A stretch of DNA of 64,000 nt from Thermoanaerobaculia bacterium (GCA_039932315.1 JBDTQG010000015.1:1148-65147); one strand, 5' to 3'; shown: positions 1 through 47,545, numbered from the stretch's first letter. The notes: a model not told the origin generated them from the sequence alone. Program-made: numbers and translations.

Positions 1-1463
1 TCGTCGATGACTTCGAGCAGAATCGCCATCCCGGGCTGCATCCCGTCGCCGAGAAGCAGCGTGCCGAGGTCGGCGGCGCGGAGCTCGACACGTCGAGTGC
101 GCACCCGTACCCGCCCGGCGCGCTCGCCGCCAGGCGCAGCATGCGCTCCCGAATGCGCCCCGCTCCGGGCACTGTTGCCGGCCTCCGCAGCGCCGATGCC
201 GCTGGTGGCGCCGCCGGCGATCGCATCGTGGGCGTTGGTGAGGAGATTGAGGATCACCTGCCGGAGCTGGCTCGAGTCGCCGGCGATCGGCGGCAAGTGC
301 GGTGCGAGATCGAGCCGCGTCTGACTGGCCACGGTCTCCAGCGCGCGCAACAGATGGACGACGTCTTCGACGAGCGAGTTGAGGTCGATCGCGCGGCGCT
401 CGATCTCTCCGCGGCCCGCGTAGGTGAGCAGCTGGCGCGCGAGCTCCGTCGCCCGATCGGCGGCCGCGGCGACGGCGAGCGCGCGTTCGCGGACGGGCGA
501 GCCCTCGGGCAGCCGATCGAGCACGAGCTCGATGTTGCCGACGATCGGCGTCAGCAGGTTCGAGAAGTCGTGGGCGATTCCACCGGCCAGAAGTCCCAGG
601 CTCTCGAGTCGTTCCGTGCGTCGCAGGAGCTCTTCGCTGCGTTTGCTCTCCGTGATGTCCTGTGCGACGCCGAGGATCTGCTGCATGCGTCCGTGCTCGT
701 CGCGCAGAAAGGGCGTGTTGTGCGACCGGAACCAGCGCCATTCGCCGTTGCGGTGCCGGAGGCGGAACTCGATCGTGAGAGAGGCGCCCTCGAGGACGCC
801 TCTCCAGCGCTCGTCGCGATCAAGCGCCGCTGCCTTGTCGTCCGGGTGGCAGAGGTAGTCGAACGGATAAGGACCGAAGGTCAGGGATTCTGCCGCCGAG
901 TATCCGAGCGCCACGGGGACGGAGCGATTGATGTAGACGTCGCGTCCGAGCTCGTAGTCGTAGATAAAGAGGAAGTACGGAGCGACCTCGGCGATGCGCG
1001 CGAGGCGCCGGCTCATCTCCTGAGCGTCGCTTTTGACCTGCTCGCGATCGGTGACGTCGCCGAGGAAAGTCAGAACCGCCGGCCGGTTCTCCCATTCGAT
1101 CGGCATCGAATGCGCTTCGAGGACCGCGACGCCACCGTCCGGGAGCAGAAGGCGCGCGACCATCGTGCGATCGGTGAGGTCGCCGGCGAGCCGGCTGGCA
1201 TAGAGCTCCTGGACGAACGTCCGGTCGTCGGGGTGGATCAGGTCGAGAAACGGCTTGCCGACGAGCTCGTCGATCGGAATCCGGGTGATTCGCGCCGCCG
1301 AGGCGTTCGCGACCTTGAGAAGCCCGTCCTGGGCGATGACGATCGCTTCGTGGCTATGATCGAAGGCGATGCGATAGTGCGCACCGCCCTGCGCACCGGC
1401 CGCAGAGCTCGCCGCGTTTCCGTCCATCGCGGAGCCCGTTCCAGGCGGCCCGGCATCGTCCAT
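1..1463 (-). CDS. sensor histidine kinase, PAS-PAS-HisKA-HATPase_c (3' end runs off the window)
   Basis: Absent from the ORF track because its stop lies outside the window. Hand translation of the minus strand from ATG 1463 (alternative ATG 1427) is open to nt 1. It reads HYRIAFDHSHEAIVIAQDG (PAS-like), EFRLRHRNGEWRWFRSHNTPF (second PAS-like), H-box LGLLAGGIAHDFSNLLTPI (about 543-599), N-box QVILNLLTNAHDAI, and ends MAILLEVIDD at the edge. The listed 141..1703 + ORF is its antisense shadow. Confidence 0.85.
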   Translation of the reverse strand, partial: MDDAGPPGTGSAMDGNAASSAAGAQGGAHYRIAFDHSHEAIVIAQDGLLKVANASAARITRIPIDELVGKPFLDLIHPDDRTFVQELYASRLAGDLTDRTMVARLLLPDGGVAVLEAHSMPIEWENRPAVLTFLGDVTDREQVKSDAQEMSRRLARIAEVAPYFLFIYDYELGRDVYINRSVPVALGYSAAESLTFGPYPFDYLCHPDDKAAALDRDERWRGVLEGASLTIEFRLRHRNGEWRWFRSHNTPFLRDEHGRMQQILGVAQDITESKRSEELLRRTERLESLGLLAGGIAHDFSNLLTPIVGNIELVLDRLPEGSPVRERALAVAAAADRATELARQLLTYAGRGEIERRAIDLNSLVEDVVHLLRALETVASQTRLDLAPHLPPIAGDSSQLRQVILNLLTNAHDAIAGGATSGIGAAEAGNSARSGAHSGAHAAPGGERAGRVRVRTRRVELRAADLGTLLLGDGMQPGMAILLEVID

Positions 1464-1525
1464 CTGACCCGCTCCTGTCCAGTTCCCGGGAAGACTACTC
1501 GCAATCGCTTCGATGGCGGCGAGGC

Positions 1526-2437
1526 TCAGCGGAGGGCGGAATCCGTCCGCCGCCCGGATCCGTTGAGCCGCTGGCCGAGGGCTCCGACCAGCCGGGCGAG
1601 GCCGGCCGGAGCGTCGGCGAGAAAGAGCGTCGGTTCCGTGAGCTCGAGCTCCAGGAGCAGCGGCCGTCCGACGTCGTCGCGAGTCAGGTCGACTCGCGCG
1701 TAGAGCGCTCCGGCGGAGTCGCTCCCGATACCGGCGGCGTCGAGAATCCGGCCGGCGATCGCGAGCTCGTCTTCCGCCGCGGCGACGGGGGCGCCTTCGG
1801 GGAGATCGGTCCAGCGCCCGCCCTGGGTCAGAGCGTTTTTCCGCACCGCATGCGAGAAGCTGCCGTCGAGGAAAACCAGGCAGCGCTCGCCGTAGGTTTC
1901 AACCGAGCGCAGAAACGGCTGGACGAGCATGTCGCGCTCGGGGGCGAGGCGCGCGAGGTGGGCCTCGCCGCGCTCCGATTCGGCGGCAGGGACGAAGATC
2001 GTCTCCCAGGAATCGGCGGAGATCGCCGGCTTGACGACGGCATCGCTCCACCCGCGCTGCGCGAGAAGTTGGGCGTAGAAGCCCGGAGCGACGGTGTCCG
2101 TGCGCGGCACGAGCGCCGTCGGAACGACCGGAAGTCCCTTAGCGGCAAGCTCGACGAGGTAGCCCTTGTGCAGATTCCAGCGCACGAGCTCCAGGGGATT
2201 GACGAGCGAGGTGGCCGCGTTCGTGCGTTCGGCCCAGGCCAGAAATTCATCCGGCCGCCGGTAGTAGTCCCACGGAGAGCGCAACAGCGCGATCTGCGCT
2301 GTCGACCAGTCGAAGTCCGGGTCGTCCCAGGCGACGATTCCGGCGTCGATTCCCGCCGCGAGAAGCGCCCGATGCAGCGGCTGGTCGTCGGGAAAGAGAT
2401 CGGGAAGCTCGCGATAGGTCACCAGGGCAACGTCCAT
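1526..2437 (-). CDS. ATP-grasp family protein (RimK/glutathione-synthetase-like fold)
   Basis: ORF 1526..2440. The TTG at 2440 is followed by ATG at 2437, which overlaps the xerC stop (TGATG). ATP-grasp-like blocks: AVVKPAISADSWETIFV, DMLVQPFLRSVETYGERCLVFLDG, YARVDLTRDDVGRPLLLELELTEPTLF. Confidence 0.75.
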   Translation of the reverse strand: MDVALVTYRELPDLFPDDQPLHRALLAAGIDAGIVAWDDPDFDWSTAQIALLRSPWDYYRRPDEFLAWAERTNAATSLVNPLELVRWNLHKGYLVELAAKGLPVVPTALVPRTDTVAPGFYAQLLAQRGWSDAVVKPAISADSWETIFVPAAESERGEAHLARLAPERDMLVQPFLRSVETYGERCLVFLDGSFSHAVRKNALTQGGRWTDLPEGAPVAAAEDELAIAGRILDAAGIGSDSAGALYARVDLTRDDVGRPLLLELELTEPTLFLADAPAGLARLVGALGQRLNGSGRRTDSALR

Positions 2438-3438
2438 CAAGGTCCTCGTCTTTCAGAGCTTTCGTCATCGGACCCGCTGGGGACGGCAAGGGCCGGAACC
2501 TCCGCACCGCGAGCGCGGGCGCGCGGGTGAGCGTCGCGATAGACGCTCTGCAGCCGTTCGATGTCGACGTGGGTGTAGCGCTGCGTCGTCGAGAGCGAGC
2601 TATGCCCGAGGAGCTCCTGGATTGCGCGAAGGTCGGCGCCGCCCTCGAGCAGGTGTGTCGCGAAAGTGTGCCGGAGGGTATGCGGATGAACCCCGCGCGC
2701 GGTCGCGGTGGCGATGACGTAGCGATCGAGAATCCTGCGCACCGAGCGATCCGTGAGGCGTTCGCCGCGCAGGTTGACGAAGAGCGGGTCGTCGTCGCCG
2801 AAGCTTGCGGCACGGCCTGCACGCAACGCCGTCCACCCCTCTCGCCAGGCGCGGAGCGCAGCCTGTGCCGGCCGGCCGAACGGGACCATGCGCTCTTTGT
2901 CGCCCTTGCCGACGGTGCGCAGAACGCGCTCCTTGAGATCGAGATCGCGCCAGTCGAGGCTGACGAGCTCGGCGACCCGCAGGCCGGTGGCATAGAGCAG
3001 CTCGAGGATCGCGCGGTCCCGCAGCGCGACCGGTTCGTCGCCGGCCGGTGCTGCAAGAAGCGCTTCGATCTCGCCCGGACGAAGGTGGCGCGGGAGCGTC
3101 TGGGGGACCTTCGGCGTGCGAACGCGCTGCGCGGGATTCTGCGTTGCCTCGCCGACGCGGCAGGCCCAGCGGAAAAATGTCCGCAGCGCCGAGAGCGCAC
3201 GGCCCTGGCTCCTGCGGCTCCGTCCGCCCGACGCTCGCGAAAGGGAGGCGAGAAATGAGCGCACCGCGACGACGTCGATCGCTGCGAGATCGATCGTTTC
3301 TTCCGCCCGGCTGAGGTATTCCGTGGCGAGGAATTCAACGAAGCGATCGAGATCGCCGGCGTAAGCGCGCACCGTGTGCGGCGAAAGCGCCCGTTCGCCT
3401 TCGAGATGCGCGAGAAAGCGGGCGGTCAGAGCCCGCAC
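2437..3438 (-). CDS. xerC: tyrosine recombinase XerC/XerD family
   Basis: Last 333 codons of ORF 2437..3981. Catalytic blocks: ATGLRVAELVSL and HTLRHTFATHLLEGGADLRAIQELLGHSSLSTTQRYTHV. N-terminal core-binding block: LSPHTVRAYAGDLDRFVEF. The upstream part of the ORF overlaps trmFO, so the start is set at GTG 3438 (13-nt overlap with trmFO); start uncertain. The position after trmFO mirrors the Bacillus gid-codV order. Confidence 0.85.
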   Translation of the reverse strand: MRALTARFLAHLEGERALSPHTVRAYAGDLDRFVEFLATEYLSRAEETIDLAAIDVVAVRSFLASLSRASGGRSRRSQGRALSALRTFFRWACRVGEATQNPAQRVRTPKVPQTLPRHLRPGEIEALLAAPAGDEPVALRDRAILELLYATGLRVAELVSLDWRDLDLKERVLRTVGKGDKERMVPFGRPAQAALRAWREGWTALRAGRAASFGDDDPLFVNLRGERLTDRSVRRILDRYVIATATARGVHPHTLRHTFATHLLEGGADLRAIQELLGHSSLSTTQRYTHVDIERLQSVYRDAHPRARARGAEVPALAVPSGSDDESSERRGP

Positions 3439-4775
3439 GCCGCCTGCCAGCCGGCAAGCGCCGACAACGCGCGCTGGGCGTATGCCGCGCGACGCTCGTC
3501 CTTCCGCGGCAGCGGCTCGATCGCGGTGAAGAGTCCGTAATGGATGTTGGCGGGCTGAAAATGTTTGGGGTCGGATTCGGTCAGGTGTCGCGCCAGAGCT
3601 CCAAGTGCGGTGGTCGCAGGAAGGAGCGTCGGCGTTCCACTGCCGTCGAGTCCCGCCGCTCCGCGGCGCTCGAGGATGAGGTAGAGCGCCACCGCGAGAC
3701 CGGTCGCCGCGGATTCGAGATAGCCCTCGACGCCGGTGATCTGGCCGGCGAGGCGCAGGCGCGGGCGCGGCTTGACGCGATAGGCGGCGTCGAGATGCTG
3801 CGGAGAGTTGATGAAGGTGTTGCGGTGAATCTGCCCGAGGCGGACGAATTCCGCATTCTCGAGTCCCGGGAGCATCCGGAAAACGCGCTGCTGATCGGGC
3901 CACTTCATGCGCGACTGAAAGCCGACCAGATTGAAGTGGGTCTTCGTCAGATTCTCCTGCCGCAACTGCATCACGGCCCACGGCCGCCGGCCGTCGAGGC
4001 CGCGCAAGCCGACCGGCTTCATCGGACCGAAGCGCAGGGTTCCCTCGCCGCGCCGCGCGAGCTCTTCGATCGGCAGACAGCCTTCGAAAAAGAGCGCACG
4101 CTCGAAGTCGTGGAGCGGCAGAACCTCGGCGTCGAGAATCGCCTGATGAAACGCGGCGTACTGCTCTTTGTCGAGGCCCGAGTTCAGGTAGTCGTCGCCG
4201 TTTCCCTTGCCGTAGCGCGACATCCAGAAGAGCTTCGACATGTCGAGCGACTCGCCGTCGACGATCGGTGCAATCGCGTCATAGAAGTAGAGGTATTCGC
4301 CGCCGAGGAGGAGACCCAGCTCTTTCGCGAGCGCCGGCGATGTCAGCGGCCCGGTCGCGAGGACCGTGTCGTGTTCCGCCGTCAGCGCGGCGAGATCCGT
4401 GACCTCTTCGCGCCGGATTTCGAGGTTCTCGAGCCCTTCGAGCCGGGCGGAGACGGCGGCCGCAAAGCGATCGCGGTCGACGGCAAGAGCGCTTCCCGCC
4501 GGCACCGCAGCCTCCCGCGCCGTCCCGATGATCAGCGAGCCGAAGCACTCCATCTCGCGTTTGAGCAGGCCCGCGGCGTGCTCGGGATCGTCGCTGCGCA
4601 GTGAGTTGGAGCACACCAGCTCTGCGAAGTCGCCGCCCTTGTGCGCCGGTGTCGACTGGCCCGGCCGCATTTCGTGGAGCACGACGGGAACGCCGCGGGA
4701 GGCGAGCTGAAAGGCGCATTCGCTGCCTGCGAGGCCGCCGCCGATGACGTGAACCGGAGAAAGGGCGTTGGCCAT
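3426..4775 (-). CDS. trmFO: methylenetetrahydrofolate--tRNA-(uracil-5-)-methyltransferase TrmFO (Gid)
   Basis: ORF 3426..5087 trimmed to ATG 4775 (MANALSPVHVIGGGLAGSECAFQLA, an FAD dinucleotide-binding motif). TrmFO-like blocks throughout: FAELVCSNSLRSD, LRFGPMKPVGL, RLAGQITGVEGYLESAATG. The 104 codons upstream are Arg/Ser-rich junk overlapping the divergent gene. Confidence 0.9.
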   Translation of the reverse strand: MANALSPVHVIGGGLAGSECAFQLASRGVPVVLHEMRPGQSTPAHKGGDFAELVCSNSLRSDDPEHAAGLLKREMECFGSLIIGTAREAAVPAGSALAVDRDRFAAAVSARLEGLENLEIRREEVTDLAALTAEHDTVLATGPLTSPALAKELGLLLGGEYLYFYDAIAPIVDGESLDMSKLFWMSRYGKGNGDDYLNSGLDKEQYAAFHQAILDAEVLPLHDFERALFFEGCLPIEELARRGEGTLRFGPMKPVGLRGLDGRRPWAVMQLRQENLTKTHFNLVGFQSRMKWPDQQRVFRMLPGLENAEFVRLGQIHRNTFINSPQHLDAAYRVKPRPRLRLAGQITGVEGYLESAATGLAVALYLILERRGAAGLDGSGTPTLLPATTALGALARHLTESDPKHFQPANIHYGLFTAIEPLPRKDERRAAYAQRALSALAGWQAACGL

Positions 4776-4875
4776 GCGTCCATTGTAGCCGGGGGCGAGG
4801 GGCGGAATGTCCTCTTGGGGTGCTGGTTTGCGCTTAATAGAGGTGGAAGCCGATCCGTTCCCCAGGGAGAAACGC

Positions 4876-5406
4876 ATGAACTCGCCGATGTCCATTCCGC
4901 ACTTCACCAAGCGCCCGAAGCTGGGCGAAACGCTGCGCTTCTTCGGTCTGCTTTCGGGCGCCGAGCTCGACATCGCGCTCATCCGGCAGGAGAACGAGGG
5001 CGGAAGGCTCGGCACCTGCCTGCTCGACACCGGGCTCCTCGACGAAGCGACGCTTCTCGCCGCGCTCGGCGCGCAGCAGAACGTCACGACGGTCGATGCC
5101 GCGACGCTCGATGCGCTGCCTCAGTCCGCTGCGGCATTTCTGCCGGCGCGTGCTGCGCTCGTGGCGCGCGCAGTGCCGATCGCGCGCAGCGGCAAGTCGT
5201 TGGAGGTCGCGATGCTCGATCCGTCTTCCATGCAACTCATCGACGAGCTCGCCGCCGTCAGCCGCCTGGTGATCGTGCCGCGCCTCGCGCTCGAAGTGCG
5301 ACTGACGCAGTGTCTCGAGCGCCTCTACGATCTGACGATTTCCGGCCGCTTCGCCCGCACCCGCGAGCGCATCAGCCGCCGGCTCGCGCACGGCGTCGCG
5401 GTCTGA
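4876..5406 (+). CDS. stand-alone MshEN / T2SSE_N domain protein (predicted c-di-GMP receptor)
   Basis: ORF 4807..5406 trimmed to ATG 4876 (AGGGAGA 5 nt upstream). Two tandem 24-aa MshEN-type motifs, KLGETLRFFGLLSGAELDIALIRQ and RLGTCLLDTGLLDEATLLAALGAQ, are separated by ENEGG. They are followed by a GspE/PilB N-terminal-like segment (LEVAMLDPSSMQLIDELAAVSRLVIVPRLALEVRL). No ATPase domain. Confidence 0.75.
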   Translation: MNSPMSIPHFTKRPKLGETLRFFGLLSGAELDIALIRQENEGGRLGTCLLDTGLLDEATLLAALGAQQNVTTVDAATLDALPQSAAAFLPARAALVARAVPIARSGKSLEVAMLDPSSMQLIDELAAVSRLVIVPRLALEVRLTQCLERLYDLTISGRFARTRERISRRLAHGVAV

Positions 5407-5407
5407 T

Positions 5408-8194
5408 TCACGGGACGGTGTCGCTCCACGCTGCGGTGCCGTTGATTTCGAATCCGTCGTCGAAGAGGAAAGGGGCCGTCGCCCAGAGCTCGTCTCCGCT
5501 GCCGTCGCTGGCGGCGAAATAGATCAGGCCGCCACTCGCGACCAAAGGCGTCTCGCCGACGCGCGACCGGTTGGCGTGCGGATTCGAGGATTCGGGTCCG
5601 GGGTGGATGTCGCCGGCGCGCCGGGTGCGCTGCGGCGTGCCGTCGCTCACCCAGAGCTCGCAGCCCGCGGCGCCGTCGCAGGCGGAGAACCAGAGGTCGT
5701 TGCCGGAGACCGTCAGGTGCGTCGGATTGCCGCTGTCGGGACCCGGGTCGAGATCCTTGAACCGCTGCGTGCCGCCGGCCGAGCCGTCGCTCGCCCAGAG
5801 CTCGCAGCCGGAAGTCGCGTCGCAGGCGTGGAAGAAGAGCCGGCCGGCGAAGCTGGTGAGCTCGGACACCGCGCCGGACCCGGCTCCGGTGAAGGTGTCC
5901 TTCAAGAGAACGGTGGTCGCGGCGGAGCCGCCGGTCTTCCAGAGCTCGCGGCCGTGGCTGCCGTCGTCGGCGGTGAAGAAGATCGTCCCCACCGCGACGG
6001 TGAACTCGCGCGGGTTGCTGCCGGTCGTTCCCGGGTTCAAGTCGCCGAGGGCGACCTTGACGAAGCCGCCCAGGCCGGCGTCGACGATCGCCCACGGCTC
6101 GGTGCCGGCGGTCGCGGTCTGGGCGCTGAGCAGTACCACCGTGCCTGAGATGTGGAAGTTCGAGGGCGAGGACGAGTCGCTGCCCGGATTCAGGTTCGCG
6201 ACCAGGTCGGTTCCCGGCCCGGTACCGTCCGAGGTGTAGAGCTCGGTGCCGGTCGCGGTGGTGAAAGCGCCGAAGAGAATGCCGTTGCCGAAGACGCCGG
6301 AATCGGCGATCGGGAAAGCGCTGCCGCCGAGCGTGCCGGGCTCGAGGTCGAACACCAGGTCGGTATCGGCGGCGGCACCGCCCGACTTCCAGAGCTCCCG
6401 CCCGTGCGTACCGTCGTCGGCCGAGAAATAGAGCGTGCCGTCGATGTCCACGAGGTCCCTGGGAAAGGAGTTGCTGAACGTCGGGCGGATGTCCTCGACC
6501 AGGACCGCGCCGCCGGCCGTCTTCTTCCACAGCTCGTTGCCCTCCAGACCGGAGGCCGAGAAGAACGTGCGATTTCCCGAGACGGTGAACTCTGCCGGAG
6601 ACGAGTCGGCGCCGCCCGGGTTGATGTCGAGGATCAGGGCGGTTCCGGCGGCGGTGCCGTTCGAGCGCCAGGGCTCCCGTCCGTGCACTCCGTCGTCGGC
6701 GTTGAAGACCAGCGTCCCGCCCGAGTCGGTCAACTCGAAGAGTTCGCTGGAGGTGGTGTCGGCCGGCGTCGGATCGACGAGAGCGAATGTACCGCCCGGA
6801 GTGCCGTCGGTGCGCCAGAGCTCGCGGTCGATGTCCGAGGTGCTGAGAGTCATCAGGGCGACGGAGCCGATTGCCGAGAAGAGAAACGGCCTGCTGCCCT
6901 CGCCGCCGGGTAGAAGGTCCGCGACGAGCGCGGTGCCGGCGATCGTCCCGTCGGTCCGCCAGAGCTCCGATCCATGGGTTTCGTCCGAGGCCTCGAAGAC
7001 CATGGTGGAGCCGAGGACGAGGAAGCCCTCCGGGAAGGAACCGTCGGGCCCCGGTACCAGGTCGGAGATCTGAAAGGTCCCTGCGGCCGTGCCGTCAGTA
7101 CGCCAGAGTTCCTCGCCGGTGACGCCGCCGTCGTCGAGACTGATCATCATCACCGATCCGAGGACCGCGACGCCGTCGCTCTCGTCGTAGGGCGAGACGC
7201 CGCCGGGCCCGGGGGCGATCTCCTCGATCGGGACGGTTCCTCCCGCGGTGCCGTTCGACTTCCAGAGCTCGTAGCCCGTGGTTCCGTCGTCCGCCAGAAA
7301 GAAGAGTTGCGTACCCACGGCGCGCAGAACGAACGGAAAGGAGCCGGTGGCGGGGTTGATGTCCTTGACCAGCACCGTGCCCACCTCCGTCCCGTCGGAC
7401 TTCCAGAGCTCGCCGTCGTCGACGGACCCCTTGGCCTCGAAGAAGAGCGTCGATCCGACCACCGTGAGCTCGCGCGGCTCGGAGCCGTCGGCGCCGGAGA
7501 GGATGTCCTTCACCCGCACCGTTCCGGCCGGGGTGCCGTTCGACTTCCAGAGCTCCTCCCCGGCGACCCCGTCGTTGGCGTTGAAGTAGAGGGTCGATCC
7601 CACCGCGACGAGACGCTTCGGGAAAGAGCTCGCCGTCCCGGGTTGGATGTCCTTGACCAGGATCGTTCCGGCGGCGGAGCCGTCGCTCTTCCAGAGCTCG
7701 ACACCGTTCGCGGGGGTGTTGGCAGTGAAGTACAAAGTGGAACCGACGACCTTGAAGGTCGTCGGCCTCGAGTCATCCGGCCCGGGTTGGATGTCGATCA
7801 GCCGGAAGGTCCCGGCCGCGGTACCGTCCGACCGCCAGAGCTCTTTCCCGCCGGCAATGTCCTCGGCCTGGAACAGGGCGAGCGGGCCGAGCTTGATGAT
7901 CTGGCCGAACTGTCCGCCGGTCTCGCCCGGGAAGATGTTCTTGATCCGCGCGGTTCCGGCGGCGGTGCCATCGGAGCGCCAGAGCTGCAGACGATCTGCG
8001 CCGGTGCCGAGGCCGAAGACCAGGGCGCTGCCGAGCGCGACGCCAGGAGCGACCGGAAGGCTGTCGGGTTGGATTTCGGTGACGTTGATGTCGGCGACGC
8101 GGAAGGCATCGGCGCCGGCGAGCGTGGCGCAGAGGAAGGCAAGGGCTGCGAAAAGGACGTACCTGAAGCCGCGGTCACGGTGGCGCATCGACAT
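5408..8194 (-). CDS. secreted ELWxxDGT-repeat protein (928 aa)
   Basis: Full ORF in the track. N-terminal signal peptide: FRYVLFAALAFLCATLAGADA. About 17-18 copies (hand count) of a roughly 50-aa unit centred on ELW[KR][ST][DN]GT.AGT. C-terminal tail: FLFDDGFEINGTAAWSDTVP. Confidence 0.9.
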   Translation of the reverse strand: MSMRHRDRGFRYVLFAALAFLCATLAGADAFRVADINVTEIQPDSLPVAPGVALGSALVFGLGTGADRLQLWRSDGTAAGTARIKNIFPGETGGQFGQIIKLGPLALFQAEDIAGGKELWRSDGTAAGTFRLIDIQPGPDDSRPTTFKVVGSTLYFTANTPANGVELWKSDGSAAGTILVKDIQPGTASSFPKRLVAVGSTLYFNANDGVAGEELWKSNGTPAGTVRVKDILSGADGSEPRELTVVGSTLFFEAKGSVDDGELWKSDGTEVGTVLVKDINPATGSFPFVLRAVGTQLFFLADDGTTGYELWKSNGTAGGTVPIEEIAPGPGGVSPYDESDGVAVLGSVMMISLDDGGVTGEELWRTDGTAAGTFQISDLVPGPDGSFPEGFLVLGSTMVFEASDETHGSELWRTDGTIAGTALVADLLPGGEGSRPFLFSAIGSVALMTLSTSDIDRELWRTDGTPGGTFALVDPTPADTTSSELFELTDSGGTLVFNADDGVHGREPWRSNGTAAGTALILDINPGGADSSPAEFTVSGNRTFFSASGLEGNELWKKTAGGAVLVEDIRPTFSNSFPRDLVDIDGTLYFSADDGTHGRELWKSGGAAADTDLVFDLEPGTLGGSAFPIADSGVFGNGILFGAFTTATGTELYTSDGTGPGTDLVANLNPGSDSSSPSNFHISGTVVLLSAQTATAGTEPWAIVDAGLGGFVKVALGDLNPGTTGSNPREFTVAVGTIFFTADDGSHGRELWKTGGSAATTVLLKDTFTGAGSGAVSELTSFAGRLFFHACDATSGCELWASDGSAGGTQRFKDLDPGPDSGNPTHLTVSGNDLWFSACDGAAGCELWVSDGTPQRTRRAGDIHPGPESSNPHANRSRVGETPLVASGGLIYFAASDGSGDELWATAPFLFDDGFEINGTAAWSDTVP
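5467..8017 (-). repeat. tandem array of about 150-nt coding repeats (ELWxxDGT units)
   Basis: Periodic recurrence of ELWRSDGTAAGT / ELWKSDGSAAGT / ELWKSNGTPAGT / ELWRTDGTAAGT and similar in the translation of 5408..8194. Boundaries approximate. Confidence 0.8.
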
Positions 8195-8281: not shown

Positions 8282-10615
8282 TCAGGTGGCGACGCTGTCT
8301 GTGGACTCGCTGCCCTCGTACGGCGCGATGTAGTCGCAGGCCTCGTTCGGGCAGACGAGCTCGGTGCCCCGCCGTTTGGTCGTCTTCAGCGTGAGCAGCG
8401 GGTAGGCGCACTTCGGACAGGCCTGCTGGACGGGGGGATTCCACAGTGCGAACTTGCAGTCCGGGTAGCGGCTGCAGGAGTAGAAGATCTTCCCGCGCCG
8501 CGACTTCTTCTCCTGGATCGTGCCCTGCTTGCACTCGGGACACTGCACGCCGGTGTCCTTCGGCGGCGCCGCAGGCGGCCCGGTCTTGCGGATGTTCTTG
8601 CACTCCGGGTAGCCCGTGCAGCCGAGGAAAACGCCGAAACGACTGCGCCGCATGGCCATCGGCTTGCCGCACTTCTCGCACGGCGGGATGTCGGAAGGCT
8701 CCGCGGAAGCCGACGCTCCGCCGTCCGCGGGCGCATTGAGATCGCGCGTGTAGTCACAGGGCGGATCGTTGCGATACGTGCTGCAGCCGAGAAATGCACC
8801 ATAGCGGCCGAAGCGCATCACGAGGTCCGCGCCGCACTTCGGGCACTTCTCATCCACCTTGACGCCATCACGCTTGACGTTCGGCATCGTCTCGGCAGCG
8901 GTGACGAGATCCTTCGAGAAGCGGACGTCGAACTCTTCGACGGCGCGCTTCCATGGCATCTCGCCCTCTTCGATCCGATCGAGCTCCTCTTCGAGCTGCG
9001 CGGTGTAGCCCTCGTTCAGGATGTCCGAGAAGCCTTTCTGCAGCATGTCGTTCACCATCTTGCCGAGAGCGAGAGGATTGAAACGCCCTTCGACCTTCTC
9101 CGCATAGTCCCGGGTGGTCAGGGTCGACAGGATCGAGGCATAGGTCGAAGGGCGGCCGATGCCGTTCTCTTCGAGCGCCTTGACCAGTGTCGCTTCGCTG
9201 AACTGCGCCGGCGGCTGGGTGAACTTCTGTTCCTTGTTGAGCTTGACGAGCTTCAGGGTCTCGCCCTCCCGAAGCGCCGGGAGCAGCCCGTCGGACTCGT
9301 CCTCATCGTCAACGTCGCCCCGCTGCGCGGCGCGACGTTCGGCGGCTTCCTCTTTGGCCTCCTGATAGACGGCGAGAAAGCCGGGGCTCTTCATCACCTT
9401 GCCGGAGGCGCGCAGCGTGTAGATGCCGTTCGCGATGTCGACCTGGGTGACGTCGAAGACTGCCGGCAGCATCTGACTGGCGAGGAAACGATCCCAGATG
9501 AGGCGGTAGAGCTTGAGCTCGTCGGCTTCGAGGTACGGCGCGAGCTCCTCCGGCGGCAGATCGAGGAACGTCGGCCGGATCGCTTCGTGCGCGTCCTGTG
9601 CACCCTTCTTGGAGGCGTAGACATTGGGCTTCGCCGGCAGCTTGTCGGCGCCGTAGGTTTTCGTGATCGTTTCCCGCACCGCGTCGATCGCCTCGGCGGC
9701 GACGCGCGTCGAGTCGGTTCGCATGTAGGTGATGAGACCGATCTGTCCGCGGTCGCCGATTTCGCGCCCTTCATAAAGCCCCTGGGCGAGCCCCATCGTG
9801 CGCTTGACCGAGTAGCTGAACTTGCGCGCCGCCTCCTGCTGCAGCCGGCTGGTGATGAACGGCGGCAACGGCTTCTGCTTCGATTCCTTGCGTTCGATCG
9901 CCGCGACCTTGAAGGCACCGGCGAGGAGATCCTTTTCGATCGTCGCGGCCTGGGTGCCGTCCGTGACCCTCGCCTTCTTGCCTTCGACCTGATGGAGCCG
10001 CGCCGAAAACTCGGGCGGCACCGACGCGGTGAAGCGCCCGCCGACGATCCAGTACTCCTCGGGATTGAAGGCGTCGATCTCGGCCTGGCGCTCGCAGACC
10101 ATCTTGAGCGCAACCGACTGTACGCGGCCCGCCGACAGACCGCGTTTCAGCTTGTCCCAGAGGAGCGGCGAGAGCTTGAATCCCATGAGCCGGTCGATGA
10201 CGCGGCGAGCCTGCTGCGCGTCGACGCGGTTGACGTCGATCTTGCCCTTGTTCTCGAGCGCCTTCAGCACCGCGGTCTTGGTGATTTCGTTGAAGGTGAC
10301 GCGGTGCATCTCGCCTTCGACGTCGCCGAGAACCGCCGCGATGTGCCACGCGATCGCCTCTCCCTCGCGGTCCGGATCGGGAGCGAGATAGATCTGCTTC
10401 GCCTTCTTGGCGGCATCTTTCAGCTTCTTGACGACATCCTTCTTCGTCGCGAGGACCGCATAGGTCGGCTCGAAGCCCGGACCGAGGCCCATGTCCTTCT
10501 TCGGCAGATCGCGGATATGTCCGACGGACGCTTCGACGGCCCAGTCGCGACCGAGAAACTTCTTCAGGGTCCGCGTCTTGGCGGGGCTTTCGACGATGAT
10601 CAGGTTTTTGGCCAC
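8282..10615 (-). CDS. topA: DNA topoisomerase I
   Basis: 777-aa ORF. Toprim start: MAKNLIIVESPAKTRTLKKFLG...VGHIRDLP. Active-site region: GLITYMRTDSTRV. Four C-terminal Cys4 zinc ribbons: CPKCGADL...C, CEKCGKPM...C, CPECKQG...C, CPKCAYPL...C. Confidence 0.97.
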   Translation of the reverse strand: MAKNLIIVESPAKTRTLKKFLGRDWAVEASVGHIRDLPKKDMGLGPGFEPTYAVLATKKDVVKKLKDAAKKAKQIYLAPDPDREGEAIAWHIAAVLGDVEGEMHRVTFNEITKTAVLKALENKGKIDVNRVDAQQARRVIDRLMGFKLSPLLWDKLKRGLSAGRVQSVALKMVCERQAEIDAFNPEEYWIVGGRFTASVPPEFSARLHQVEGKKARVTDGTQAATIEKDLLAGAFKVAAIERKESKQKPLPPFITSRLQQEAARKFSYSVKRTMGLAQGLYEGREIGDRGQIGLITYMRTDSTRVAAEAIDAVRETITKTYGADKLPAKPNVYASKKGAQDAHEAIRPTFLDLPPEELAPYLEADELKLYRLIWDRFLASQMLPAVFDVTQVDIANGIYTLRASGKVMKSPGFLAVYQEAKEEAAERRAAQRGDVDDEDESDGLLPALREGETLKLVKLNKEQKFTQPPAQFSEATLVKALEENGIGRPSTYASILSTLTTRDYAEKVEGRFNPLALGKMVNDMLQKGFSDILNEGYTAQLEEELDRIEEGEMPWKRAVEEFDVRFSKDLVTAAETMPNVKRDGVKVDEKCPKCGADLVMRFGRYGAFLGCSTYRNDPPCDYTRDLNAPADGGASASAEPSDIPPCEKCGKPMAMRRSRFGVFLGCTGYPECKNIRKTGPPAAPPKDTGVQCPECKQGTIQEKKSRRGKIFYSCSRYPDCKFALWNPPVQQACPKCAYPLLTLKTTKRRGTELVCPNEACDYIAPYEGSESTDSVAT

Positions 10616-31066: not shown

Positions 31067-32752
31067 CTACGGGGCTGCCGGAGTCCATTCGGAGAGATCG
31101 GAGCTCTCGAAGCCGTCGCAGTAGAGGCATCCGTAGAGGACGAGGGCCGAGCCCGAGTTGTCGGGGAACGGCGCCACTTCATCGAGCGGTACGGCGACGA
31201 CGAGATCCGCGTGGCCGTCGCCGTTGAAGTCCCCGGCGCCGAGGAAAGCGCCGAAGAGGTCGTTCTGTTCGGCTTCGCCCGGCACTCCGGGCCGTTCGAG
31301 GTTCCAGCTCGTCGCGTAGGTCGCCGTGAGGTCGTTCGCGGAGCCGCGAAGAATCGTCACGGCGCCGGCACCGGTGAGCAGCGAAACCCGTTCGCCGAGG
31401 ACACCGATCGCGAGATCGTCGAAGCCGTCGCCGTCGAAGTCCGCTGCGACGAAGGCGCTGCCGAACCGCTCATCCTCGGCCGGGTCCCCGGGTACACCGG
31501 TCGAAGACTTGGTCCAGTATTGCGGCGTGTGCGCAAGCAGGACGCTCGAATTGCCGTAGAGAACGTGGACGGCGCCGGCGTTCTGAACCTCGCCCCCTTC
31601 CGGCCCGAGGTCTTCGTAGGAGACGCCGATGACCACATCGTCGAAGCCGTCGCCGTTGAAGTCTCCGGTGCCGAGAGTTGAACCGAACCAATCGAACTCC
31701 TCCTGCTGATCGGCGATTCCCGTGGTGTCCTGGGTGAGGAGCACGTCGCTCACCGCGTTCGGCCCGGACGCGTTGCTGTAGATGATGTGGACGCCGCCGC
31801 TCCTCGCCACGGCGCCCCAGTGATCGACGCCGATCGCGAGGTCGTCGAAGCCGCTGCCGTTCCAGTCACCGGCGACGACAGTCCGCGCGAAGTGGTCGTT
31901 GCCGAACGAGTCGGAGTTGATCCCGGTCGTGTCTTCGTCGAAGGTCTGAGCGCCGTCGACGACGATGCCGACGTTCGAGCCGTAGAAGACGAAGAGGCGG
32001 CCGGCATCGCCGTTGCCTCCGACGCTCTCCGACGGCACGCCGACGAGGAGCTCGTCGAAACCGTCGCCGTCGAGATCTCCTGTCGCCAGGACTTCGCCGA
32101 AACGGTCGTCCGTCCCTGCCTGATCGGGCACTCCCGCGATGTCCTCGTGTAGCAGCTTCCGGCGGGTCTCGAGCGCCTGATCCCTATTCGCGGCGCCGTA
32201 GCGGATCTCGACCGCTCCCGCATTGCTGATCGCCCCGAGGTCTTCGCCGGGAATGCCGACGGCGAGATCGGCGAAGCCGTCGTGGTCGAAGTCGCCGACG
32301 GCGAGCGCGCCGCCGAAAAAGTCCCCGGACTCGGGGTCGTCGACCGAGCTCGTGCCGCCCTGCCAGAGGTATTTGACGACGAAGCCGTTCGGGAGTCCGC
32401 TGCCCGCAGCGCCCCAGCGGATCTGCACCTGTCCAACCTCCGAAAGCGCGAAAATCGGCTGGTCGTCGTAGTGAATGCCGATCGCCAGGTCGTCGACACC
32501 ATCGCCGTCGAAATCCCCCGCGGCCACCGCATTGCCGGAGAACTCCTGCCCGTTCGTGGGGCCATGCAGCGGATAGTCGGTGCTCTCGTAGAAGAGCTGC
32601 GCGTGCGGCGTCGCGGGACCGACGGCGGCCTGCGCCGCGGCGGAAAACAGCACGAACAGCACGGTACAGGTCCATCGCAGGAGCGAACGGCCCTCCTGAA
32701 TGGGGCGGAGACGATCCGGTCCTGCGGAAAGCGACGGGCGAATGGCATTCAT
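31067..32752 (-). CDS. secreted FG-GAP (integrin-alpha-like) repeat protein
   Basis: 561-aa ORF. Signal peptide: LLRWTCTVLFVLFSAAAQA. Eight or more units of the type FG.ALA.GDFDGDGFDDLA.G. C-terminal tail: LYCDGFESSDLSEWTPAAP. Confidence 0.9.
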   Translation of the reverse strand: MNAIRPSLSAGPDRLRPIQEGRSLLRWTCTVLFVLFSAAAQAAVGPATPHAQLFYESTDYPLHGPTNGQEFSGNAVAAGDFDGDGVDDLAIGIHYDDQPIFALSEVGQVQIRWGAAGSGLPNGFVVKYLWQGGTSSVDDPESGDFFGGALAVGDFDHDGFADLAVGIPGEDLGAISNAGAVEIRYGAANRDQALETRRKLLHEDIAGVPDQAGTDDRFGEVLATGDLDGDGFDELLVGVPSESVGGNGDAGRLFVFYGSNVGIVVDGAQTFDEDTTGINSDSFGNDHFARTVVAGDWNGSGFDDLAIGVDHWGAVARSGGVHIIYSNASGPNAVSDVLLTQDTTGIADQQEEFDWFGSTLGTGDFNGDGFDDVVIGVSYEDLGPEGGEVQNAGAVHVLYGNSSVLLAHTPQYWTKSSTGVPGDPAEDERFGSAFVAADFDGDGFDDLAIGVLGERVSLLTGAGAVTILRGSANDLTATYATSWNLERPGVPGEAEQNDLFGAFLGAGDFNGDGHADLVVAVPLDEVAPFPDNSGSALVLYGCLYCDGFESSDLSEWTPAAP

Positions 32753-47250: not shown

Positions 47251-47545
47251 TCACGGTTCGATCGTTTCCCACGCTGCGGTCGATCCGGATTCGAAACCGT
47301 CGCGGAAGAGAAGGTTGGGCGCTCTCGTCGGCGCCCGGAAGCGCGTTCGCCTCCTGCACCGCAGCGCGCAGCGTGCAGGGCGCGGCGGCGAGAGCGCTCG
47401 CGCAGAGGCCGTCGCCGGGCGCGGCATCGACGGCATCGGTGAGCGGTACGACGACAAATTCCGCGGCGAGCGAGGGCCGGACGATTGCGATCAGTGCGCC
47501 GGTCAGCAGGGCGATCCGTCGGACGCTCGGCGATCTCATGGCCAT
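47251..47545 (-). pseudogene. collapsed, frameshifted remnant of a secreted CSLREA-motif protein retaining only head and DGFE tail
   Basis: Frame A from ATG 47545: MAMRSPSVRRIALLTGALIAIVRPSLAA (signal) EFVVVPLTDAVDAAPGDGLCASALAAAPCTLRAAVQEANALPGADE, then Arg-rich junk. A different frame from about 47330 reads APNLLFRDGFESGSTAAWETIEP(stop at 47251). Confidence 0.5.

What the first reader, a model, noticed from the sequence alone, without database searches (positions are those of the whole stretch)
5408..5470. Identically spaced C-terminal tail DGFE-x6-W-x4-P-stop shared by three unrelated exoprotein genes
The last residues of three genes align without gaps from DGFE to the stop: DGFE, six residues, W, four residues, terminal Pro.
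- ELWxxDGT protein: FLFDDGFEINGTAAWSDTVP
- FG-GAP protein (31067-31129): LYCDGFESSDLSEWTPAAP
- Collapsed gene at 47251-47330: LLFRDGFESGSTAAWETIEP

The upstream domains are unrelated (ELWxxDGT propeller-like repeats, FG-GAP repeats, CSLREA-type head). The tail therefore behaves like a portable C-terminal tag. It lacks the TM helix plus basic cluster of exosortase/sortase-type signals (PEP-CTERM, LPXTG and similar), and I do not recognise it as a catalogued sorting signal. It could be a secretion, processing or surface-attachment signal.
Basis: seen in the sequence. Interest (0 to 1): 0.6.

Follow-up and report, generated by a model that had tools for sequence, protein, structure and literature searches.

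The report
Undescribed C-terminal tag on exported proteins
About 58 unrelated exported proteins of this uncultured soil acidobacterium (class Thermoanaerobaculia) end in the same floppy 20-residue peptide, which sits where related proteins in other bacteria carry known secretion or surface-anchoring signals, so it is probably an undescribed address or docking label whose reader is still unknown.

Summary
All three tails are present at the stated coordinates. About 58 ORFs in 36 unrelated families end in Φ-F-x-D-G-F-E-x-G-x4-W-S-x3-P.

- **Cargo and selection:** Nearly all carriers have Sec signal peptides. Selection acts on the protein, because conserved residues use many synonymous codons.
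- **Databases:** No Pfam or NCBIfam model covers the tail, and I found no paper on it.
- **Structure:** AlphaFold models it as disordered.
- **Same slot elsewhere:** Homologues carry T9SS CTD, MYXO-CTERM-like, YLP-box, dockerin or RTX modules there. Paralogues here carry IPTL-CTERM.
- **Other positions:** The motif also occurs just after the signal peptide (2 cases) and between domains (at least 5).
- **Distribution:** Multi-copy only within this class, and patchy even within the order.
- **No reader found:** ECF43 sigma/kinase modules sit beside tail genes and their numbers correlate, but neither needs the other. IPTL-CTERM is independent and secretins are universal.

My best reading is a trans-recognised docking or retention tag; an export signal is the main rival. 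This scan has found the same tag before, on another piece of this genome and in other genomes.

The parts
5408..8194 (-). Gene for a 928-aa exported ELWxxDGT-repeat protein that carries the tag
   Evidence: ORF. TIGR04534 matches at E 1.8e-256 with 17 repeats. The N-terminus MSMRHRDRGFRYVLFAALAFLCATLAGADA is a Sec-type signal peptide. The two closest homologues (67-68% identity) keep the tail.
5411..5470 (-). Tag copy 1: FLFDDGFEINGTAAWSDTVP, followed by the stop codon at 5408-5410
31067..32752 (-). Gene for a 561-aa exported FG-GAP beta-propeller protein that carries the tag
   Evidence: ORF. PF01839 matches at E 4.3e-55. The AlphaFold2 model has mean pLDDT 87 and pTM 0.86. It belongs to a cluster of 14 tagged paralogues in this genome.
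31070..31129 (-). Tag copy 2: CLYCDGFESSDLSEWTPAAP, followed by the stop codon at 31067-31069
   Evidence: Residues 546-561 of the model have pLDDT 30-34 and no secondary structure.
47254..47316 (-). Tag copy 3: NLLFRDGFESGSTAAWETIEP, the tail of a collapsed gene remnant
   Evidence: It lies in a different reading frame from the head, 10 nt downstream of it.
47327..47539 (-). Head of the collapsed gene: signal peptide (MRSPSVRRIALLTGALIAIVRPSLAA) plus a CSLREA-like motif (CTLRAAVQEANALPGAD)
   Evidence: TIGR04214 matches at E 6.2e-5 and 22.8 bits, below the 25-bit cut-off. The two flanking genes are about 0.4 kb apart here but 5.6-23 kb apart in genomes of the same genus.

Best explanation
The tail is a self-contained, flexible peptide module of about 20 residues: Φ-Φ-F-x-D-[G/S/N]-F-E-x-G-x4-W-S-x3-P-COOH. 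It is acidic and aromatic, and evolution has attached it to the end of many unrelated Sec-exported proteins.

**Shown:** it is real, under protein-level selection, portable, disordered in the model, and found in the slot that homologues use for secretion or anchoring signals.

**Inferred:** after Sec export, the exposed peptide is bound in trans, as a short linear motif, by a common partner in the cell envelope. That partner could be a protein or a surface glycan. Binding would keep or position the cargo at the cell surface without a covalent link. On this view the tag stays on the mature protein, and the conserved terminal proline protects it from carboxypeptidases. The partner has not been identified.
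For: - **Enrichment and portability.** The exact motif is followed by a stop in 31 of 36 cases, with 0 hits for the reversed motif. About 58 tagged ORFs fall into 36 unrelated body clusters.
- **Protein-level selection.** Conserved positions use many synonymous codons (Ser TCG/AGC/TCC, Gly GGC/GGA/GGT/GGG, Pro CCC/CCG/CCT/CCA). Stop-codon usage equals the genome background.
- **Exported cargo.** 47 of 59 candidates pass a crude signal-peptide test, and three more do on inspection. Only one has a possible lipobox. The cargo types are extracellular.
- **Flexible peptide.** In the AlphaFold2 model the propeller body has pLDDT above 90, while tail residues 546-561 score 30-34 with no contacts or secondary structure.
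- **Slot equivalence across phyla.** Of the 120 best ELWxxDGT homologues, 17 end in a T9SS CTD (PF18962), 8 carry RTX repeats, 5 a dockerin, 5 a YLP-like motif and 4 a MYXO-CTERM-like signal; only the 2 closest keep the tag. Among FG-GAP homologues, 25 of 120 carry the tag and 7 carry a YLP-like motif, three of them matching the NCBIfam YLP-box models at E 0.1-0.3.
- **Slot equivalence within the genome.** Three of the IPTL-CTERM proteins are paralogues of tagged proteins.
- **Docking rather than a strictly C-terminal signal.** The same module sits directly after the signal peptide in two proteins and between domains in at least five. The terminal Pro is conserved in 36 of 44 canonical copies.
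Against: - **No partner was found.** There is no recurrent neighbour other than regulatory genes.
- **None of the four profiles tested tracks the tag**.
- **The fixed length is not obviously needed for docking.** The conserved distance from the W to the free C-terminus would fit a machine that reads the terminus at least as well.
- **The equivalent modules are a mix.** Those in the same slot include true export signals (T9SS CTD, RTX) as well as anchors, so slot equivalence does not choose docking over export.
- **There is no experimental evidence on whether the tail is retained.**
Confidence: 0.42

Rival explanations
1. Outer-membrane export signal. After Sec export, an outer-membrane translocon (a secretin-type T2SS or an unknown channel) reads the tag and passes the folded cargo out. 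The tag may then be cleaved off. It would act like a very short counterpart of the T9SS C-terminal domain.
For: - Homologues carry genuine export signals in the same slot: T9SS CTD in 17 of 120 and RTX repeats in 8 of 120.
- The tag is strongly biased to the extreme C-terminus, with a fixed length after the W.
- The cargo proteins are typical extracellular enzymes and adhesin-like repeats without lipoboxes.
- Two secretin genes are present in this genome.
Against: - Secretins occur in all high-quality genomes searched, tag-positive or tag-negative, so nothing co-varies with the tag.
- N-terminal and interdomain copies of the module are not expected for CTD-type or sortase-type signals.
- Single tagged genes occur in three genomes of other classes with no shared neighbour.
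- No T9SS CTD model matches the tail, and the tail is 20 disordered residues, not a folded domain.
Confidence: 0.25
2. Substrate-binding or matrix-binding mini-module. The tag is a cut-down remnant of the opening strands of a jelly-roll (CBM/LamG/MAM-type) domain. Through its three aromatic and two acidic residues it sticks to a polysaccharide, either environmental or the cell's own exopolysaccharide or LPS, and not to a protein receptor.
For: - The only database hit to a tail is to positions 2-22 of the 155-position NTTRR-F1 domain, at E 0.009.
- In two giant proteins (contigs C8 and C46) the module directly precedes a ~135-residue beta-rich domain.
- No protein partner co-varies with the tag.
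- Many cargo proteins are enzymes that act on polymers.
Against: - Twenty disordered residues are very small for a carbohydrate-binding unit.
- What follows the module in internal copies is diverse: a region I read by eye as PPC-like, a beta-helix, RHS repeats and others. These regions show no mutual similarity, so the module is not tied to one domain.
- The conserved terminal Pro and fixed length have no obvious role in glycan binding.
Confidence: 0.1
3. C-terminal pro-peptide or stability element. The tail controls the lifetime or activation of the exported protein. For example, a periplasmic C-terminal processing protease might read it, or its terminal proline might shield the protein from such a protease. 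It would not direct localisation.
For: - The distance to the free C-terminus is fixed, and the terminal Pro is conserved in 36 of 44 canonical copies.
- The tail is disordered and therefore accessible.
Against: - The N-terminal and interdomain copies have no free C-terminus.
- A conserved F-x-D-x-F-E...W core is more than protease shielding needs.
- Homologues fill the slot with localisation signals, not pro-peptides.
Confidence: 0.08
4. Signalling ligand. The periplasmic TPR domains of the Ser/Thr receptor kinases that activate ECF43-type sigma factors sense the tags. The cell would thereby monitor its own exoproteins, much as DegS senses the C-termini of outer-membrane proteins.
For: - 10 of 16 TIGR02999 (ECF43-type) sigma genes lie within four genes of a tagged gene, usually next to a kinase-TM-TPR protein (hypergeometric p about 1e-5).
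- Tag counts and sigma counts correlate across the 41 relatives (Spearman 0.73, and 0.67 outside the own genus), with no correlation to genome size. Related genomes are not independent, so this overstates the link.
- The ligand of the periplasmic TPR region of the studied ECF43 kinase PknS is unknown (PMC13147305).
Against: - Neither side needs the other. G028 has 43 tags, 1 sigma gene and 0 matches to the sensor domain. G026 (31 tags) and G002 (36 tags) also have 0 sensor matches.
- Tag-free G031, G040 and G019 have 10, 8 and 6 sigma genes and 3-4 sensor matches each.
- The simplest reading of the adjacency is that the modules regulate the neighbouring exoprotein genes.
Confidence: 0.06
5. 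Functionless relic. The tail is what remains after repeated truncation of a C-terminal lectin-like domain, or it spreads by recombination without any function.
For: - It resembles the opening of jelly-roll domains.
- A collapsed gene remnant in the window still carries it.
Against: - Length and residues are conserved across 36 unrelated families and across genera, while synonymous codons vary.
- Orthologues at 44-66% overall identity keep F, D, F, E, W, S and P while the other tail positions change.
- Genomes carry 15-76 copies each, with zero hits to the reversed pattern.
Confidence: 0.03

Closest known systems
YLP-box putative sorting motif ('ultrashort_CTERM'; NCBIfam NF050076 and NF053834)
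   Same: It is a very short motif at the extreme C-terminus of exported repeat proteins, with no transmembrane helix and no known reader. It occupies the same slot in distant homologues of both window proteins: three FG-GAP homologues match the models at E 0.1-0.3 (two reach NF053834's 10-bit cut-off), and ELWxxDGT homologues end in ...IYLPLIQR or ...VFLPTVAR.
   Different: The sequence is different ([VI]YLP[LT]V.[RK], basic), the length is 10-11 residues against 20, and it occurs in different lineages. The YLP models do not match the window's tails. I found no publication on the YLP-box.
Tripartite C-terminal sorting signals (IPTL-CTERM TIGR04174, PEP-CTERM/exosortase, MYXO-CTERM, GlyGly-CTERM/rhombosortase, LPXTG/sortase)
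   Same: These are portable C-terminal tags on many unrelated exported proteins of one genome, restricted to certain lineages. IPTL-CTERM proteins coexist in this genome, and three are paralogues of tagged proteins. MYXO-CTERM-like ends occur on ELWxxDGT homologues.
   Different: The tag has no transmembrane helix and no basic cluster, and its net charge is about -2. It also occurs at mature N-termini and between domains. No sorting enzyme is known or implied. Its presence across genomes is independent of IPTL-CTERM (Spearman 0.14; G028 43 tags/0 IPTL, G029 0/28).
Type IX secretion C-terminal domain (TIGR04183 / PF18962)
   Same: It is a C-terminal signal without a membrane anchor on Sec-exported proteins, and it directs passage across and attachment to the outer membrane. 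It is the most frequent occupant of the same slot in ELWxxDGT homologues (17 of 120).
   Different: The CTD is a folded beta-sandwich, about 70-100 residues from my own knowledge, and strictly C-terminal. The tag is 20 disordered residues with no model match. I did not test whether T9SS machinery is present.
Dockerin-type docking modules
   Same: They are small acidic modules placed at either end of secreted enzymes, and they dock the enzymes non-covalently onto a receptor domain. Dockerins (PF00404) fill the slot in 5 of 120 ELWxxDGT homologues.
   Different: Dockerins are folded calcium-binding modules (about 70 residues with duplicated loops, from my own knowledge) that have known cohesin partners. 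No PF00404 match and no cohesin-like partner was found here.
Opening strands of jelly-roll lectin-like domains (NTTRR-F1 NF033675; CBM_4_9-like, from my own recollection)
   Same: The pattern [DN]-G-F-E-x-G-x4-W resembles the start of these domains. One tail matches NTTRR-F1 positions 2-22 at E 0.009.
   Different: Only 21 of 155 profile positions are present, and the protein then ends. No homologue lacking the motif, which could act as an acceptor domain, was found in this genome.

Membership tests
Tripartite C-terminal sorting signals (PEP-CTERM, IPTL-CTERM, MYXO-CTERM, GlyGly-CTERM, LPXTG) | A signature motif followed by a hydrophobic transmembrane helix | tested here: not met
   The tails end 5 residues after the W, and the position-by-position composition shows no hydrophobic stretch. 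Genuine tripartite ends in the same genome are easy to recognise.
Tripartite C-terminal sorting signals (PEP-CTERM, IPTL-CTERM, MYXO-CTERM, GlyGly-CTERM, LPXTG) | A cluster of basic residues at the extreme C-terminus | tested here: not met
   The last 20 residues have a mean net charge of -2.2 (range -5 to +1), and 36 of 44 canonical tails end in Pro.
Tripartite C-terminal sorting signals (PEP-CTERM, IPTL-CTERM, MYXO-CTERM, GlyGly-CTERM, LPXTG) | A match to the curated NCBIfam or Pfam model | tested here: not met
   No such model hits the full proteins at E <= 0.1, or ten isolated tails at E <= 10.
Tripartite C-terminal sorting signals (PEP-CTERM, IPTL-CTERM, MYXO-CTERM, GlyGly-CTERM, LPXTG) | Co-occurrence with a dedicated sorting enzyme (sortase, exosortase, rhombosortase) | not tested
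   I did not search for sortase, exosortase or rhombosortase families. The IPTL-CTERM signal itself does not co-vary with the tag.
T9SS C-terminal domain (TIGR04183 / PF18962) | A folded beta-sandwich domain (about 70-100 residues, from my own knowledge) that matches the model | tested here: not met
   The tag is 20 residues, with pLDDT 30-34 and no secondary structure. There is no PF18962 or TIGR04183 hit.
T9SS C-terminal domain (TIGR04183 / PF18962) | Presence of the T9SS machinery in the genome | not tested
   No search for T9SS components was run.
YLP-box ultrashort C-terminal motif (NF050076 / NF053834) | A terminal [VI]-Y-L-P-[LT]-V-x-[RK]-type motif that matches the 10-11-position models | tested here: not met
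   The window proteins and their tails give no hit. Distant FG-GAP homologues do (P0044, P0046, P0111).
Jelly-roll lectin-like domains (NTTRR-F1 NF033675; CBM/LamG/MAM type) | A complete domain of about 150 residues that scores over the curated cut-off | tested here: not met
   One tail in ten hits NTTRR-F1, at 16.2 bits against a 70-bit cut-off, and only over profile positions 2-22 of 155.
Dockerin (PF00404) | A match to the dockerin model | tested here: not met
   There is no PF00404 hit on the window proteins. Dockerins are annotated on some ELWxxDGT homologues.
ECF43 sigma / Ser-Thr kinase signalling module (as reader of the tag) | The tag and the module occur together across genomes | tested here: not met
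   The counts correlate (Spearman 0.67-0.73), but G028 has 43 tags with 1 sigma gene and 0 sensor-domain matches. G031, G040 and G019 have 6-10 sigma genes and no canonical tags.

The most novel reading that the evidence does not exclude
The tag is the linear address of an undescribed envelope pathway. A short disordered peptide would by itself direct folded, Sec-exported proteins to an outer-membrane translocon or surface receptor. If the translocon is the universal secretin-type (T2SS-like) system, this would be a linear, transplantable secretion signal for a system whose substrate signal has long been unknown.
Probability: 0.15. Interest if true: 0.85.

Novelty: new variant of a known kind. 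Interest (0 to 1): 0.6.

Why it matters
Roughly 1.5-2% of this organism's genes carry the tag (about 58 of some 3,050 called genes), and most relatives in its order have 15-76 copies of the canonical form. The tagged genes mark out the likely exoproteome of a widespread, uncultured soil and sediment lineage. Current annotation names none of these tails.

A 20-residue, unstructured, transplantable peptide that addresses proteins to the envelope or the exterior of a diderm bacterium would be a new kind of sorting or docking label. It has no membrane anchor and no folded domain. It would be easy to model as an HMM for annotation, and it might be useful as a fusion tag.

Finding its reader could uncover a new envelope receptor or export route. 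The physical and numerical link with ECF43 sigma/kinase modules also suggests that these exoproteins are switched on individually by external signals.

Tried and rejected
1. **Stop-codon readthrough or a special stop.** Stop usage at tails (TGA 41, TAG 13, TAA 5) equals the genome background. Gene 1 abuts a convergent gene. Rejected.
2. **A DNA-level repeat that happens to encode the tail.** Conserved residues use many synonymous codons. Rejected.
3. **Split-domain acceptor.** The ~135-residue domain that follows the motif in the C8 giant protein has one homologue in the genome (C46), and that copy also carries the motif. No motif-less copy was found. This domain is not similar to the region after the motif in G039 and has no PDB relative. 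No support.
4. **Partner beside low-copy tag genes.** Neighbours in G025 (4-5 copies), G039 and three single-copy genomes of other classes share only abundant families: Ser/Thr kinases, FG-GAP/ASPIC proteins and ABC ATPases.
5. **Neighbour enrichment in 80 loci from other genomes.** Only kinase-TPR and sulfatase families recur, and both are abundant paralogue families.
6. **Phylogenetic profiles over 41 relatives.**
   - TIGR02999 sigma: correlated but not obligate.
   - Kinase TPR sensor domain: not obligate.
   - IPTL-CTERM: independent.
   - GspD-type secretin: universal.
7. **Slot analysis in tag-negative relatives.** This failed because those genomes largely lack the cargo families.
8. 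**Ancestral state of the collapsed gene.** The flanking genes are 5.6-23 kb apart in congeners, but the interval in G008 holds unrelated genes, so the lost body could not be reconstructed.
10. **Whole-library profile search with the tail.** Not run, because a 20-residue profile cannot reach significance against 1.8 billion proteins.
Full report
**1. Observation**

The three tails exist as described.
- Gene 5408-8194 (-) encodes a 928-aa protein with 17 ELWxxDGT repeats (TIGR04534, E 1.8e-256). It ends ...FLFDDGFEINGTAAWSDTVP.
- Gene 31067-32752 (-) encodes a 561-aa FG-GAP propeller (PF01839, E 4e-55). It ends ...LYCDGFESSDLSEWTPAAP.
- The third case is a gene remnant. A signal peptide and a CSLREA-like head (47327-47539, -; TIGR04214 at E 6e-5, just under the cut-off) are followed after only 10 nt, in another frame, by NLLFRDGFESGSTAAWETIEP-stop (47254-47316). 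Its two flanking genes are about 0.4 kb apart here and 5.6-23 kb apart in genomes of the same genus. A large piece has therefore been lost here, although I could not reconstruct what it was.

**2. More than chance, and genome-wide**

The window is contig C15 of a 4.05-Mb, 66% G+C assembly with 202 contigs.
- In its six-frame translation, the distance from GFE to the next stop has one sharp spike at 15 residues: 47 cases against about 7 at neighbouring distances.
The reversed motif never occurs.
- With small tolerances, 58 ORFs end in the tag.
- Without their last 25 residues, these ORFs fall into 36 clusters with no BLASTP similarity between them. The largest cluster holds 14 FG-GAP paralogues.
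- The consensus is Φ-[LIV]-F-x-[DN]-G-F-E-[ST]-G-x-[TS]-[SA]-x-W-S-x-x-[VA]-P-stop.
- Conserved residues use many synonymous codons, and stop-codon usage equals the genome background. Selection therefore acts on the peptide, not on a DNA element or a special stop.

**3. What carries it**

- 47 of 59 candidates pass a crude signal-peptide test. Three of the failures have clear signal peptides on inspection, and others are contig-edge fragments or ORFs with long non-coding leaders.
- Only one has a possible lipobox.
- Cargo proteins include FG-GAP and ELWxxDGT propellers, a GSDH-like dehydrogenase, a galactose/glyoxal-oxidase-like enzyme, an M43 peptidase, an expansin-like protein and, in relatives, S8 subtilases. 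I read two further proteins as HExxH metalloproteases, and some as beta-helix proteins, by eye from their sequences; neither reading was tested against a model. This is an exoproteome.

**4. Anatomy of the tag**

- The last 20 residues have a mean net charge of -2.2 and contain no hydrophobic stretch.
- An AlphaFold2 model of the window's FG-GAP protein, built on a 52-sequence alignment, is confident for the propeller (mean pLDDT 87, pTM 0.86). Residues 546-561 score pLDDT 30-34 with no secondary structure. The tail is thus modelled as a free, flexible peptide and not as part of the fold.
- Distant homologues of the propeller simply end after the last blade, so the fold does not need the tail.
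- The module is not strictly C-terminal. It lies 8-10 residues after the signal-peptide cleavage site in an esterase-like protein (C135) and in a 3,038-residue protein (C19).
- It also lies between domains in two cupredoxin-like proteins whose C-terminal part looks PPC-like by eye, in a beta-helix protein, in two giant repeat proteins (C8, C46) and in an RHS-like protein.
- In C8 and C46 the whole 20-residue module, including ...W-S-x-T-V-P, is retained before a further domain.

**5. Comparison with catalogues**

- No Pfam or NCBIfam model covers the tail, either in the whole proteins or in ten isolated tails searched at E <= 10.
- The only hit is sub-threshold: 16 bits (cut-off 70) to positions 2-22 of the 155-position NTTRR-F1 domain. 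The tag therefore resembles the opening strands of a jelly-roll lectin-like domain but is not such a domain.
- Full-text searches for 'DGFE' and 'YLP-box' found nothing relevant.

**6. The slot**

- Among the 120 best homologues of the ELWxxDGT protein, only the two closest (67-68% identity) keep the tag. The others end in T9SS C-terminal domains (17), RTX repeats (8), dockerins (5), YLP-like motifs (5) or MYXO-CTERM-like signals (4).
- Among the 120 best homologues of the FG-GAP protein, 25 carry the tag, and these are the closer relatives (39-66% identity). In these orthologues the G of DGFE can be S, N or D, and F can be L. Seven end in a YLP-like motif. Three of these match NCBIfam's YLP-box models (NF050076, NF053834 'ultrashort_CTERM') at E 0.1-0.3; two of them reach NF053834's 10-bit cut-off and none reaches NF050076's 15 bits.
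- This genome also has at least 13 IPTL-CTERM-like proteins, 7 of them over the TIGR04174 cut-off. Three are paralogues of tagged proteins.
- The tag therefore occupies the position that evolution uses for secretion, sorting and docking signals.

**7. Distribution**

- A DNA pattern for the tail gives 15-76 copies in 31 of 41 genomes of the order, including all 17 of the own genus. The reversed pattern gives 0 in every genome.
- No canonical copies were found in nine relatives. Seven of these are 92-100% complete: G019 (same family), G029, G031, G032, G034, G039 and G040. G025 has only two.
- A looser pattern finds nothing in G019 and G029. It finds a few variant copies in G025 and G039 and one internal copy in G031. 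A variant copy also turned up in G040.
- Tag-free relatives largely lack the FG-GAP cargo family as well.
- In an even sample of 301 genomes of the phylum, multi-copy genomes occur only in the own class. This includes one genome from another order with 73 copies. Three genomes of other classes have a single copy each.
- A capped scan of named records returned mostly MAGs labelled Thermoanaerobaculia, 'Holophagae' or Acidobacteriota, plus a few labelled 'Deltaproteobacteria'.

**8.

Neighbourhoods gave no candidate partner.
- In this genome the only enriched neighbours are regulatory. TIGR02999 (ECF43-type) sigma genes, usually paired with kinase-TM-TPR proteins, lie within four genes of a tagged gene in 10 of 16 cases (p about 1e-5).
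- Eighty loci from other genomes gave no dedicated partner, and neither did the low-copy and single-copy genomes.

Profiles across the 41 relatives also gave none.
- Tag number correlates with the number of ECF43-type sigma genes (Spearman 0.73, and 0.67 outside the own genus) but not with genome size. These genomes are related, so the correlation overstates the link.
- The link is not obligate. G028 has 43 tags, one sigma gene and no match to the kinase sensor domain. G031, G040 and G019 have 6-10 sigma genes and no canonical tags.
- The ECF43 system is a known type, in which the kinase PknS phosphorylates the sigma factor EcfK and the ligand of its periplasmic TPR region is unknown (PMC13147305). 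Here it most simply regulates the adjacent exoprotein genes.
- IPTL-CTERM is independent of the tag (Spearman 0.14; G029 0 tags/28 IPTL, G028 43/0).
- Secretins are present in 40 of 41 genomes, including all high-quality ones.

No reader was identified.

**9. Mechanism**

What is shown: a selected, portable, disordered peptide on Sec-exported proteins, placed in the sorting-signal slot.

What I infer as most likely (confidence about 0.4): a short linear motif bound in trans by a common envelope partner, which keeps the cargo at the cell surface. The reasons are as follows.
- The module also works at mature N-termini and between domains, as docking modules do and as CTD-type or sortase-type signals do not.
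- It needs no membrane anchor.
- Its conserved terminal proline would protect a persistent tag from exopeptidases.

The main rival (about 0.25) is an outer-membrane export signal. This would explain the strong C-terminal bias and the fixed length, and homologues do carry true export signals in the same slot. The remaining rivals are a glycan-binding mini-module, a stability or pro-peptide element, a kinase ligand and a functionless relic. They are scored in the report sections.

**10. Novelty and context**

- The kind (a portable C-terminal tag of exported proteins) is known. This variant is short, acidic, anchor-less and disordered, and it has no known machinery.
- It is absent from Pfam, NCBIfam and the literature searched. 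Its nearest catalogued neighbour is the equally unexplained YLP-box.
- This scan has noted the same tag before, on another piece of this genome and in other genomes. Those notes also report a shorter form ending ...DGFE in Lysobacterales, which I did not test. They gave me the YLP-box and ECF43 leads, which I checked here.

Noticed in passing
Genome G000, e.g. C37:7813-11177, C29:5469-8956, C7:61221-65172, C20:43239-43802 (outside the window): ECF43-type sigma genes (TIGR02999) paired with kinase-TM-TPR Ser/Thr kinases sit next to tagged exoprotein genes in 10 of 16 cases. Sigma counts and tag counts correlate across relatives (Spearman 0.67-0.73), but neither requires the other.
   Followed up: yes
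Genome G000, e.g. C6:58473-60272, C11:12437-13867, C17:49513-50796, C46:12246-13508: At least 13 proteins end in an IPTL-CTERM-like tripartite signal (...[VI]-[EDQ]-[VI]-P-[TA]-[LM]..., then a TM helix, then RRR). TIGR04174 is over its cut-off in 39 of 41 genomes of the order, including tag-free ones. By eye the cargo includes repeat proteins I take to be HAF-type and a multihaem-cytochrome-like protein; I did not test these assignments.
   Followed up: partly
Proteins P0037, P0044, P0046, P0060, P0072, P0111 (FG-GAP homologues) and P0129, P0133, P0139, P0199, P0209 (ELWxxDGT homologues): Distant homologues from other phyla end in ...[VI][YF]LP[LT][VI].[RK]. For three of them this matches NCBIfam's YLP-box putative sorting motif (NF050076/NF053834) at E 0.1-0.3. 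I found no paper on this motif.
   Followed up: partly
L016 (G019:C24), ORF ending at locus position 3015: The single large FG-GAP protein of a tag-free relative has a different C-terminal domain that ends ...HLVVDVNGYFE-stop. The ending is superficially reminiscent of a short GFE end but has different spacing.
   Followed up: no
L008 (G039:C118) 8970-10500 and L006 (G039:C75) 3737-7726: In one protein the motif is followed by a ~240-residue region. At another locus a homologue of that region (32% identity) is a separate gene with its own signal peptide, immediately downstream of a gene that ends in the tag. The module therefore marks a point where proteins have been split or fused.
   Followed up: partly
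window 4807-5406 (+): A stand-alone 199-aa MshEN-domain protein (PF05157, E 2.8e-11) converges on the ELWxxDGT gene, its ORF ending one base before that gene's stop codon. This kind of domain is known from my own recollection as the N-terminal part of T2SS/T4P ATPases. I have no evidence that it is linked to the tag.
   Followed up: no
L146 (G040:C93) 170-1939 (-): A genome scored tag-free by the exact pattern has one exported protein ending ...LFDDGFESGGIGRWSSRIVAIPLP, a variant with a longer extension after the W. 'Tag-free' therefore means no canonical copies.
   Followed up: no
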